This document shows, in pieces, positions 43,146 to 44,630 of a stretch of 64,000 nt of DNA. The DNA is taken from UHGV virus genome UHGV-1366919; one strand, 5' to 3'. Made by a program: the position numbers and the translations under genes. Each line of letters opens with the position of its first letter. Position 1 is the first letter of the stretch. The notes under the pieces were generated by a model, which saw only the letters and a list, made by a program, of their open reading frames with translations, was not told the DNA's origin and did no database searches. Source of the DNA: a virus.

Positions 43146-44630
43146 TTAAATGGTGATTACTTTATAACGTTCAGAATTAATAACAGACTCCATAAATTGT
43201 TCAGGATTTTTGCCCTGAAGAATCAGTTCAAACATTCCGGGCTTGCAGCCGTTAATAATAATTGCTCCTTCATCATTCTTAGTGACAGGCTGGTTGGCCT
43301 TGTAATCGGCAGCAACATTCCAGTAAACAAGCTTAGGACATTCATATTCTGAATTCCTAAACATTTTCTTGATGGAATTCATTACATGCTCCGGCCATCT
43401 TTGCTGGTCGAACTGCATGTCAGAAATAACAACAATTACCTCGGGCATTTCTTCCTTAGGAATATGATACTTGATTGCAGTATTAAGAACCAGTTCAAAT
43501 ACGGCATAAAGGTTAGTGCTTAGACCTTGACGAGGATTATCCTCAATATTACTAACCTTTTGCTTAATATTATATTCTGGATTCAAATCAACCAGATAAG
43601 GTTCAGAAGAAAAGGTAATGAACTTGTTCTGAAATACTCCCATATTGCGTTCGGCAATATAAAGGCCGAGAGAAATAGAACAGTTCATTGGAAGCTCTTC
43701 ATAGCAAGTCATAGATCCGGAAACATCGACAACTGCAAGCCAGTTTGCATGATCATCCTTTCCAAAATAATTTGGAAGGGCTTTCCACATTTGATCCATC
43801 AATGCCAATTCCTGGTCATCATAAGTACCACGAACCTTTCGTACAATCTCATAAGGATAAAGAGTCTTGGAATTTACTTTGGCTTTACCCTTTGCAAGTG
43901 AATTAAGATATTCAGTATACCTGTCATTATCATTCCGGGCAAATGCTTTTCGATACTTCAAAGCAGCTTGTCCCGGAACCTGGGAATAATCAAATTCATA
44001 CTTTTTCTTAGAAAGATGAGATTCAATAATATTGATAGCCTTGCGAAGGCGAGAAAGCATTTTTCGATAAGATTTTTCATCTATTCCAAATACTTCTCGA
44101 CGAATCTTATTTGCAATTGCCCTAGTATGTTTAGAAGACGTATTGCAAGAAGGAAGCCATTTCGCACAAAGAGAAATATCAGGCTTGTCTTTATCAAGCT
44201 TTTGAATATCTTCATTAATTTGGAATTTGATAATTTCAGCAATATGATTGCTAATGCTTCTTTCGATTCCATAAAGAGCAATCAAATCATCCCAACGTCC
44301 ATAAAAAGGAATAAAACGAAGAACCTTACAGATAGTTTTAGGATCAATATCAATAAGTTCCTTCATTCCTTCTCGAAAAACATTCCTTTCGCCTTGACCA
44401 CCATTGCCTCGAATATCCCGAAAATAAAAAAGAATACGAATACAAAAAAGCTTATCTTCGGAATATGCCTTTCGAACAAGAGATTTCAAACGCTTAGAAT
44501 CTGAGCGGCAAGATGCACCAGAAGCAAACAAATTAAGAAGACTGTCAAGAGTAGACTTATATGCTGGACAACCGTTTTCAGTTTCCGTATTATTATTTTC
44601 TACTGCCATTGCTTTAAAAAGTTCACTCAT
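43146..44630 (-). CDS. Ro60/TROVE-like protein with C-terminal vWA (MIDAS) domain (Rsr-like)
   Basis: vWA MIDAS VVDVSGSM. C-terminal pattern FITFSSEP...EVIVVISDMQFD...PKLVYWNV parallels the Ro60 vWA region (VVAFSDEM...DVFIVFTDNE...AKLIVCGM). N-terminal LNLFASGASCRSD resembles the TROVE FLCFGSEGG region. Assignment made from remembered motif-level similarity only. Confidence 0.5.
   Translation of the reverse strand: MSELFKAMAVENNNTETENGCPAYKSTLDSLLNLFASGASCRSDSKRLKSLVRKAYSEDKLFCIRILFYFRDIRGNGGQGERNVFREGMKELIDIDPKTICKVLRFIPFYGRWDDLIALYGIERSISNHIAEIIKFQINEDIQKLDKDKPDISLCAKWLPSCNTSSKHTRAIANKIRREVFGIDEKSYRKMLSRLRKAINIIESHLSKKKYEFDYSQVPGQAALKYRKAFARNDNDRYTEYLNSLAKGKAKVNSKTLYPYEIVRKVRGTYDDQELALMDQMWKALPNYFGKDDHANWLAVVDVSGSMTCYEELPMNCSISLGLYIAERNMGVFQNKFITFSSEPYLVDLNPEYNIKQKVSNIEDNPRQGLSTNLYAVFELVLNTAIKYHIPKEEMPEVIVVISDMQFDQQRWPEHVMNSIKKMFRNSEYECPKLVYWNVAADYKANQPVTKNDEGAIIINGCKPGMFELILQGKNPEQFMESVINSERYKVITI

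What the first reader, a model, noticed from the sequence alone, without database searches (positions are those of the whole stretch)
43146..44630. Phage-encoded Ro60/TROVE-vWA (Rsr-like) protein
The 494-aa protein has a vWA MIDAS motif (VVDVSGSM) and downstream blocks FITFSSEP / EVIVVISDMQFD / PKLVYWNV that parallel the Ro60 vWA domain. Its N-terminal LNLFASGASCRSD is reminiscent of the TROVE FLCFGSEGG segment. Ro60 orthologs are RNA quality-control proteins that partner with Y RNAs. They are rare in phages and usually come with RNA-repair enzymes, which this region also carries (ligase two genes downstream; kinase, phosphatases and ligase at 57-62 kb).
Basis: partly seen in the sequence, partly recalled or inferred. 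Interest (0 to 1): 0.8.

Follow-up and report, generated by a model that had tools for sequence, protein, structure and literature searches.

The report
Ro60-like phage protein and partner RNAs
This phage gene encodes a Ro60-type RNA-binding protein from a widespread but little-studied family (Pfam DUF2828+DUF7788), and it travels with small tRNA-mimicking RNAs, not in Rfam, that are probably its ligands.

The parts
43146..44630 (-). Gene for the 494-aa Ro60-like protein (Pfam DUF2828 + DUF7788; PHROG 850 'RNA-binding protein')
   Evidence: ORF. Pfam and PHROG. AlphaFold pLDDT 91.4, pTM 0.91. Ro60 is the top structural match.
43755..44630 (-). N-terminal all-helical domain (aa 1-292), TROVE-like in fold only
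43146..43754 (-). C-terminal vWA domain with a complete MIDAS motif (aa 293-494; DxSxS at 302-306, T372, D404)
   Evidence: Pfam DUF7788 E=1.3e-40. MIDAS residues invariant in 54 homologues. hhalign to the Ro60 vWA domain: 74% probability, E=2.7e-5.
49781..49845 (-). Y-like RNA copy 1: P1 helix AAGACUC/GAGUCUU, ACAGCAA, and an inner hairpin UUGUU-CUUUUAA-AACAA that mimics a tRNA-Lys(UUU) anticodon arm. It ends where tRNA-Glu begins.
   Evidence: R1 covariance model 38.1 bits, E=8.7e-7; the model was built without window sequences. Anticodon-arm analysis. tRNA-Glu at 49707-49781.
50384..50478 (-). Y-like RNA copy 2: AGACAC..ACAGCAA..GUGUCU-AG with a T-arm-like hairpin (CUUGG-UUCGAUU-CCAGG) plus a second hairpin. 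It is followed by a tRNA at 50297-50380.
   Evidence: R1 29.1 bits, E=1.5e-4. Sequence. Adjacent tRNA.
50479..50542 (-). Y-like RNA copy 3 (short form), in tandem directly 5' of copy 2
   Evidence: R1 50.2 bits, E=9e-10.
53584..53711 (-). Y-like RNA copy 4 (long form): AGACAU..ACAACAA, then a Phe-like anticodon arm, T-arm, closed 8-bp acceptor hairpin and D-arm, i.e. a circularly permuted tRNA mimic as in YrlA. It is followed by tRNA-Gly.
   Evidence: R1 20.3 bits, E=0.021. Rfam YrlA 26 bits, below the gathering score of 69. Structural scan.
45041..49638 (.). A 4.6-kb insertion (PEP-CTERM protein, HTH, IS1595 transposase, two ORFs) that separates the gene from its RNAs. It is absent from a 98%-identical phage contig.
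   Evidence: blastn against L206 and L203. Gene content. In relatives the nearest Y-like RNA and tRNA-Glu lie about 500 nt upstream of the gene.
41705..42718 (-). RNA ligase (PF09414 + PHA02142 OB domain) in the same transcription direction, two small ORFs downstream. Context only; a candidate functional partner, not shown.
   Evidence: Synteny is conserved in relatives.

Best explanation
The gene encodes a Ro60-like protein: an N-terminal alpha-helical, TROVE-like domain followed by a MIDAS-bearing vWA domain. It belongs to the DUF2828/DUF7788 family, a lineage distinct from canonical Ro60/Rsr. Its most likely ligands are small RNAs encoded on the same strand, four of them in this window. Each has a 7-bp closing helix, a 2-nt spacer, an invariant single-stranded ACAGCAA, a variable insert, the return strand and an unpaired G. 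The conserved frame would be the protein-binding handle, analogous to the Ro-binding stem of Y RNAs. The insert displays tRNA parts: an anticodon arm, a T-arm, or a whole permuted tRNA. These would engage tRNA-recognising host or phage enzymes such as nucleases, PNPase or RNA-repair ligase/kinase. The resulting RNP would serve tRNA/RNA surveillance, repair or counter-defence during infection. Shown here: the fold, the vWA homology, the existence and covariation of the RNA family, and its strand-specific reciprocal co-occurrence with the gene. Inferred: physical binding, and everything downstream of it.
Confidence: 0.65

Rival explanations
1. The ACAGCAA-frame elements are cis-acting leaders that control expression of the downstream gene or operon (attenuators, autoregulatory binding sites or processing signals). 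They are not trans-acting partner RNAs.
For: In bacterial-genome loci nearly all copies lie in tandem within about 1.5 kb directly upstream of the gene, on the same strand. In motif-selected viral loci the median motif-gene distance is 99 nt.
Against: In LeBron and SUSP1 the copies lie downstream of the gene. In many phages they are interspersed with tRNAs several kb away. In this window a 4.6-kb insertion with opposite-strand genes and terminators separates them from the gene, yet all four keep intact frames. Up to seven copies with different tRNA-like inserts are not expected of a leader. Autoregulatory binding would still make them ligands of the protein.
Confidence: 0.15
2. The protein is a generic MIDAS/vWA adaptor with a helical domain, for example a chaperone cofactor of the MoxR-vWA type or a metal-dependent protein-protein adaptor. 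It would have no RNA role, and the neighbouring RNAs would belong to the tRNA array rather than to the protein.
For: Pfam sees only DUFs and a marginal VWA_2. An AAA ATPase gene (51451-52578) lies upstream in this phage and its relatives. CKA15_055 was detected in virions (PMC12282133).
Confidence: 0.08
3. It is a true, merely divergent, Ro60/Rsr orthologue that works exactly like Rsr: canonical YrlA-type Y RNA, PNPase tethering, RYPER-like degradation of structured RNA.
For: The architecture is the same. One window RNA has a YrlA-like permuted tRNA module and a weak Rfam YrlA hit. Thermus phage phiRo60 binds Yrl RNAs and host PNPase (PMC12135203).
Against: There is no TROVE or vWA_Ro60 Pfam hit, whereas human Ro60 scores 172 and 257 bits on them. 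The N-domain is about 70 residues shorter. The conserved RNA handle is ACAGCAA plus a 7-bp helix rather than GNCGAAN0-1G (PMC4201824). R1 RNAs are absent near canonical TROVE genes. YrlA scores 26 bits against a gathering score of 69. Most copies carry only a short hairpin and no tRNA-like elbow.
Confidence: 0.1

Closest known systems
Ro60 / bacterial Rsr with Y RNAs (YrlA, Yrn1); Pfam TROVE PF05731 + vWA_Ro60 PF25045
   Same: Two-domain architecture: a helical-repeat domain followed by a MIDAS vWA domain. It is the best structural match over 403 residues. Partner-type small RNAs are encoded nearby on the same strand. These have a closing stem plus a variable module that can be a permuted tRNA mimic. 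The neighbourhood holds RNA-repair genes.
   Different: No sequence-level TROVE membership. Shorter N-domain (292 against about 365 aa). The conserved RNA handle is a 7-bp helix + NN + ACAGCAA + 3' G, not the bulged GGUCCGA/GNCGAA helix (PMC4201824). Many copies per locus, most carrying only an anticodon-arm-like hairpin. Much wider spread in phages (710 against 358 GenBank records).
Thermus phage phiLo phiRo60 with Yrl1/Yrl2 (PDB 9kop, 9l5y; PMC12135203)
   Different: phiRo60 is annotated as a TROVE-domain protein, and its RNAs were described as stem-bulge-stem Y RNA-like molecules. PNPase binding is shown there and untested here.
Same-family phage proteins already annotated or studied: mycobacteriophage LeBron gp53 ('Ro-like RNA-binding protein'), Listeria A511 gp178 / CKA15_055, Ounavirinae 'RNA-binding protein' (Bas63 gp130)
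   Same: Direct homologues at 29-38% identity over the full length. They have the same tRNA and RNA-repair context, and I found the same ACAGCAA-frame RNAs next to them.
   Different: Those studies inferred Ro-likeness and only speculated about Y RNAs (PMC12282133, PMC11482910); none identified the RNAs. That Bas63 gp130 is a member rests on its published description, on my recollection that Bas63 is phage JohannRWettstein (confirmed only as a Felixounavirus), and on homologues in other Ounavirinae. I did not test its sequence.
Rfam YrlA (RF02553)
   Same: Window RNA 53584-53711 has the permuted order T-arm, closed acceptor stem, D-arm, with near-consensus T- and D-loops.
   Different: 26 bits against a gathering score of 69. 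The outer, Ro-binding stems of the model do not align. The other three window copies give no YrlA signal.

Membership tests
Ro60/TROVE (Pfam PF05731) | Significant match of the N-terminal domain to the TROVE profile | tested here: not met
   No TROVE hit at E<=10. As a positive control, human Ro60 scores 172 bits. hhalign of the N-domain against a 6-sequence TROVE profile gives E=0.37. The profiles were shallow, so deeper HHpred could still find a link.
Ro60/TROVE | Helical-repeat (HEAT-like) ring domain followed by a vWA domain, superposable on solved Ro60 structures | tested here: met
Ro60/TROVE | Ro60-type vWA domain with a MIDAS motif (DxSxS...T...D) | tested here: met
   hhalign 74% probability, E=2.7e-5, 158 columns, MIDAS in register. 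D302, S304, S306, T372 and D404 are invariant. Pfam names the domain DUF7788 rather than vWA_Ro60.
Ro60/TROVE | Partner Y RNA encoded near the gene on the same strand | tested here: met
   Y-like RNAs accompany the gene in 65/83 viral and 65/80 genome loci, all on the same strand. The window has four copies, adjacent to the gene in relatives that lack the insertion. They form a different RNA family from YrlA.
Ro60/TROVE | Partner RNA carries the canonical Ro-binding element (bulged helix with GGUCCGA / GNCGAAN0-1G) | tested here: not met
   The invariant columns of the 62-sequence alignment are ACAGCAA and one 3' G, with no GNCGAA. The canonical motif is taken from PMC4201824.
Ro60/TROVE | Physical binding of Y RNA and misfolded RNA; tethering to PNPase | not testable with these tools
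   Needs biochemistry (EMSA, RIP-seq, cryo-EM).
DUF2828/DUF7788 family (PHROG 850; SEA-PHAGES 'Ro-like RNA binding protein') | PF11443 and PF25043 above gathering score; full-length PHROG 850 match | tested here: met
   129.2 bits (cut-off 29) and 139.5 bits (cut-off 27.1). PHROG 850 at 430.6 bits over aa 1-490. All 120 listed homologues carry PF11443, and 119 also carry PF25043; the exception is the deletion fusion P0079.
Rfam YrlA (RF02553), for the RNA at 53584-53711 | Score at or above the gathering threshold (69 bits) | tested here: not met
   26 bits. Only the tRNA-like core aligns.
MoxR-vWA chaperone pair | Adjacent MoxR-type AAA+ ATPase gene | tested here: not met
   The nearest AAA gene (51451-52578) matches PF00004/DUF815 weakly, is not adjacent, and is separated from the gene by tRNAs and RNAs.

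The most novel reading that the evidence does not exclude
DUF2828/DUF7788 proteins and the ACAGCAA-frame RNAs form a second, previously unrecognised, very widespread Ro/Y-RNA-like ribonucleoprotein system of phages and bacteria. One protein would be loaded with a panel of small RNAs that display isolated tRNA parts: anticodon arms with specific 'anticodons' such as Lys-UUU and Asn-GUU, T-arms, or whole permuted tRNAs. These would act as decoys or adaptors for tRNA-directed host nucleases or other defences, for example the ppl system countered by Bas63 gp130.
Probability: 0.3. Interest if true: 0.85.

Novelty: new variant of a known kind. Interest (0 to 1): 0.62.

Why it matters
Ro60 and Y RNAs are a long-studied RNA quality-control module, and the bacterial and phage roles are still unclear. 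This family appears to be the commoner phage version, with twice as many GenBank phages as canonical Ro60 and hosts from Actinobacteria to Proteobacteria, Firmicutes and probably Verrucomicrobia. It already has a genetic phenotype, countering the ppl defence in Bas63. Two recent papers guessed that Y RNAs must exist for it but did not find them. A defined, covarying RNA family with a short invariant handle and swappable tRNA-like modules gives concrete, mutable candidates. These can be tested by binding assays, structures and knock-outs in tractable phages (A511/P100, LeBron, Felix O1-like phages). It also suggests that some 'non-coding gaps' and odd 'tRNAs' in phage tRNA arrays are partner RNAs of this protein.

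Tried and rejected
- Sequence searches against the PDB, both single sequence and 54-sequence profile, found nothing relevant. NCBIfam found nothing.
- hhalign of the family profile against human Ro60 alone gave only a weak vWA alignment. Against a 6-sequence TROVE profile only the vWA domain was significant, and the N-domain alone was not.
- My first structural scan for permuted tRNA modules gave 24 hits. About seven were simply adjacent real tRNAs and were discarded after ARAGORN.
- Helix covariation in my seed set is circular for six of the seven pairs, because I selected for pairing. I therefore rely on the ACAGCAA-anchored register test, on the seventh pair, which was unconstrained on its 5' side, and on independent loci.
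- I hoped the super-abundant non-coding transcripts of Listeria phage CKA15 were these RNAs. The equivalent A511 region (L082:10453-11111) is a different, roughly 550-nt element with no R1 hit, so I claim no expression evidence.
- RNase P coupling of the RNA 3' ends fits three of the four window copies. In general it holds for only 23 of 333 frames, against 2 in a random control.
- The roughly 400-nt structured non-coding stretch directly upstream of the gene (44686-45040) is conserved but is not an R1 or Rfam match, and it remains unexplained.
- Rfam at gathering threshold did not report YrlA even next to canonical TROVE genes, including phage ET08. The absence of YrlA hits is therefore uninformative.
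- My guess at the Bas63 accession was wrong: MZ501108 is Bas27. Bas63 gp130 membership is inferred, not tested.
- The 2016 Burroughs & Aravind RNA-repair survey is not in the searchable library, so I could not check whether it already links DUF2828 to Ro/TROVE.

Full report
**Observation.** The ORF at 43146-44630 is real but lies on the minus strand. It runs from ATG to stop and encodes 494 aa; the plus-strand reading is full of stops. The neighbourhood is also as described. An RNA ligase (PF09414 plus the PHA02142 OB domain) lies at 41705-42718, after two small ORFs. Further on there is a T4 Rnl1-like ligase, a metallophosphoesterase and a P-loop kinase at 57.5-61.8 kb, and a tRNA cluster at 49.7-54.5 kb, all on the minus strand.

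**Family assignment by sequence.**
- Pfam gives DUF2828 (PF11443, E=2.5e-37) and DUF7788 (PF25043, E=1.3e-40). Generic VWA_2 is marginal (E=0.08), and there is no TROVE hit at E<=10.
- PHROGs gives a full-length match to phrog_850, 'RNA-binding protein' (E=1.5e-128). NCBIfam and PDB sequence searches give nothing.
- The family is very large: more than 6,800 homologues, and all but one of the 120 listed share the two Pfam domains.

**Fold.**
- A 54-sequence alignment gave a confident AlphaFold2 model: pLDDT 91.4, pTM 0.91.
- Foldseek against the PDB returned Ro60, Rsr and the Thermus phage 'Trove domain' structure as the ten best hits. All were aligned over the full length, with E from 6e-8 to 7e-6. 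The next hits were isolated vWA domains at E>=4e-3.
- I recalled the human Ro60 sequence and validated it: it matches PDB 9nen_A over 1-538 at 1224 bits, and Pfam calls it TROVE + vWA_Ro60. With five phage TROVE proteins it made a small TROVE profile.
- hhalign between the two family profiles links only the C-terminal domains, at 74% probability and E=2.7e-5 with MIDAS in register. The N-terminal domains alone are not significant, E=0.37.
- Conclusion: the architecture and vWA domain are Ro60-like. The N-terminal domain is TROVE-like in structure only. The protein is not an orthologue of Ro60/Rsr.

**How common, and what is already known.**
- tblastn finds the family in 710 of 50,697 GenBank phage records. 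They include mycobacteriophage cluster L (LeBron gp53, 'Ro-like RNA binding protein'), Listeria A511/P100-like phages, Felix O1-like Ounavirinae, and Staphylococcus, Campylobacter, Aeromonas, Vibrio, Bacillus and Enterococcus phages.
- Canonical TROVE Ro60 is in 358 records, almost all actinobacteriophages. The protein is therefore not rare.
- Its Ro-likeness is already in curated annotation and in three recent papers. LeBron gp53 is toxic on overexpression (PMC13148394). CKA15_055 matches Rsr by HHpred and was detected in purified virions (PMC12282133). Bas63 gp130 is described as 'highly similar in structure to Ro60', lies directly upstream of the tRNAs, and counters the ppl defence system (PMC11482910).
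- The last two papers speculated that Y RNAs exist for this protein but identified none. Chen et al. 2014 surveyed Y RNAs only in genomes annotated as carrying a TROVE protein (PMC4201824).

**The RNA partner, as first seen in the window.** A sub-threshold Rfam YrlA hit at 53586-53686(-) aligned a permuted tRNA core: a T-arm, an 8-bp closed acceptor hairpin, then UA and a D-arm. I fetched 80 viral loci encoding homologues of 34-43% identity. Genuine examples of such modules there were always framed by a conserved 5' AGACAC-nn-ACAGCAA and a 3' GUGUCU-(U/A)G, with compensatory helix variants. The frame also encloses much shorter inserts.

**Tests of the RNA family.**
- *Register test, anchored only on ACAGCAA.* The heptamer occurs 409 times on the gene strand, against 91 on the opposite strand and 85 in reversed sequence. 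In 35% of gene-strand sites, the hexamer exactly 2 nt upstream has a complementary hexamer plus (U/A)G 25-190 nt downstream. At shifted registers and in controls the figure is 1-7%. 54 distinct helix sequences are used.
- *A seventh base pair.* In an alignment of 62 short forms, a seventh pair whose 5' side I had not constrained is paired in 58 of 62 sequences, with 24 AU<->UA exchanges. ACAGCAA and one 3' G are the only invariant columns.
- *Protein-selected viral loci.* A covariance model (R1) finds 169 hits at E<=0.01 in the 83 protein-selected loci (80 viral-metagenome, 3 cultured-phage), all on the gene strand; 107 were not seeds. By my count 65 of 83 loci have a hit.
- *Independent replication.* In 80 bacterial-genome loci that were never used for the model, there are 131 hits, all on the gene strand, in 65 of 80 loci. 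Most lie in tandem directly upstream of the gene.
- *Reciprocal test.* 80 viral loci were fetched only by the DNA pattern AGACACNNACAGCAAN{30,60}GTGTCTWG. Of these, 38 encode the protein within the 1-15 kb held, all 42 motif-gene pairs share a strand, and the median distance is 99 nt.
- *Specificity.* There is no R1 hit at E<=1 in five canonical-TROVE phage loci that contain many tRNAs.
- *Cultured phages.* Cultured phages show the same arrangement. LeBron has three copies just after gp53, A511 three just before gp178, and SUSP1 four after the gene.
- *Rfam.* Rfam 15 has no family for these RNAs, even at E<=10.

**The variable inserts mimic tRNA parts.** Hairpins with a 7-nt loop of the form CU-NNN-AA on a stem of at least 4 bp occur 36 times in 143 frames. 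The mean in 200 shuffles is 0.73, with a maximum of 4. T-loops (UUCGAAU, UUCAAAU) are also frequent, and some copies hold a whole permuted tRNA.

**The window copies.** R1, built without any window sequence, finds four copies, all on the minus strand:

| Coordinates | E-value | Features |
|---|---|---|
| 50542-50479 | 9e-10 | short form |
| 49845-49781 | 8.7e-7 | inner hairpin UUGUU-CUUUUAA-AACAA, a Lys(UUU) anticodon-arm mimic |
| 50478-50384 | 1.5e-4 | T-arm-like hairpin plus a second hairpin |
| 53711-53584 | 0.02 | ACAACAA variant; Phe-like anticodon arm, T-arm, closed acceptor hairpin, D-arm |

- Three of the four end within a few nt of a tRNA 5' end. That adjacency is enriched in general but is not the rule: 23 of 333 frames, against 2 in a random control.
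- The copies lie 5-9 kb upstream of the gene only because of an insertion. The window carries about 4.6 kb (approximately 45041-49638) holding a PEP-CTERM protein gene, an HTH gene, an IS1595 transposase and two ORFs. This block is absent from a 98%-identical contig.
- In relatives, the third RNA and tRNA-Glu lie about 500 nt upstream of the gene.

**Interpretation.** The best-supported reading is a second Ro/Y-RNA-type RNP. A Ro60-like protein binds, through the conserved helix + ACAGCAA + G handle, a panel of small RNAs whose variable modules present tRNA features to other enzymes. Binding and function are inferred, not shown. RNA ligases, RtcB, polynucleotide kinase, phosphoesterases and tRNA arrays recur in the neighbourhood. 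Together with the Bas63 ppl phenotype, this points to tRNA/RNA surveillance, repair or counter-defence. The rival readings are a cis-regulatory leader, a generic vWA adaptor, and a true Rsr orthologue with canonical Y RNA. Each fits less well, for the reasons listed under rival explanations.

**Host and origin.** Close relatives come from human gut metagenomes. The nearest genome-derived homologues are in Verrucomicrobiales and Akkermansiaceae MAGs (47-48% identity). This fits the PEP-CTERM gene in the insertion. It is a hint at the host, not a determination.

**Verdict.** The protein call itself is already known. The added value is the conserved RNA family, which I found neither in Rfam 15 nor in the searchable literature. 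That search covered open-access papers only, so prior description elsewhere cannot be excluded.

Noticed in passing
window 49635-49707 (-); weaker second hit at 50831-50886 (-): A sub-threshold Rfam hit to the HDV-like ribozyme of F. prausnitzii (33.2 bits against a gathering score of 44, E=0.007) directly abuts the 3' end of tRNA-Glu (49707-49781). It may be a tRNA-linked HDV-like ribozyme of the kind reported in gut phages; that report is from my own recollection.
   Followed up: no
window ~45041-49638: A 4.6-kb insertion relative to a 98%-identical phage contig. It contains a PEP-CTERM-anchored repeat protein (45157-46479, -), an HTH regulator (46607-46840, +), an IS1595-family transposase (47169-48200, -) and two + strand ORFs. 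This is mobile or moron DNA dropped between the tRNA/Y-like RNA block and the Ro-like gene.
   Followed up: partly
L206:10001-11242 (corresponds to a deletion of window 42354-44037): A natural 1,684-bp deletion variant in a 98-99.8% identical phage. It fuses the N-terminal part of the Ro-like protein (99% identity over 40% of the query) in frame to the C-terminal part of the RNA ligase. The product is P0079, 413 aa, seen on three contigs. It removes the vWA domain and two small ORFs.
   Followed up: partly
window 44686-45040 (-): A conserved non-coding stretch (about 85% identity in relative L203), relatively GC-rich, lying directly upstream of the gene, with terminator-like hairpins at 45151-45119 and 44725-44686. 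Its folding energy has z=-3.27 against shuffles. It gives no Rfam hit and no R1 hit. Function unknown.
   Followed up: partly
window 38889-41199 (-) and 55766-56611 (-): An NAD salvage module: NAMPT (38889-40289), a NUDIX-domain protein with an unassigned N-terminal half (40294-41199) and a NADAR-domain protein. NAMPT also lies near the homologous gene in mycobacteriophage LeBron and is mentioned for Listeria phage CKA15 (PMC12282133).
   Followed up: no
window 59334-60434 (-) and 62559-63896 (-): Two TnpB/Cas12f-like (OrfB_IS605) genes sit inside the phage's RNA-repair gene block.
   Followed up: no
L082 (Listeria phage A511) 10453-11111 (+): An unannotated gap with a near-consensus sigma-A-type promoter (TTGACA-17-TATAGT), followed by about 550 nt of structured non-coding sequence. 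It is probably the equivalent of the CKA15_059-061 region, which accounts for up to 67% of phage transcripts late in infection. It is not an R1 match or an Rfam gathering-threshold match.
   Followed up: partly
window 53584-53711 (-) compared with L203: The long tRNA-like Y-like RNA is present in the window and in L206 but absent at the same position in the 79-85% identical relative L203. Individual RNA copies are therefore gained and lost between close relatives.
   Followed up: no
protein family as a whole (DUF2828): All the open-access papers that mention DUF2828 concern plants or a tardigrade genome, so the family also has eukaryotic members. Whether those pair with any RNA was not examined.
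   Followed up: no
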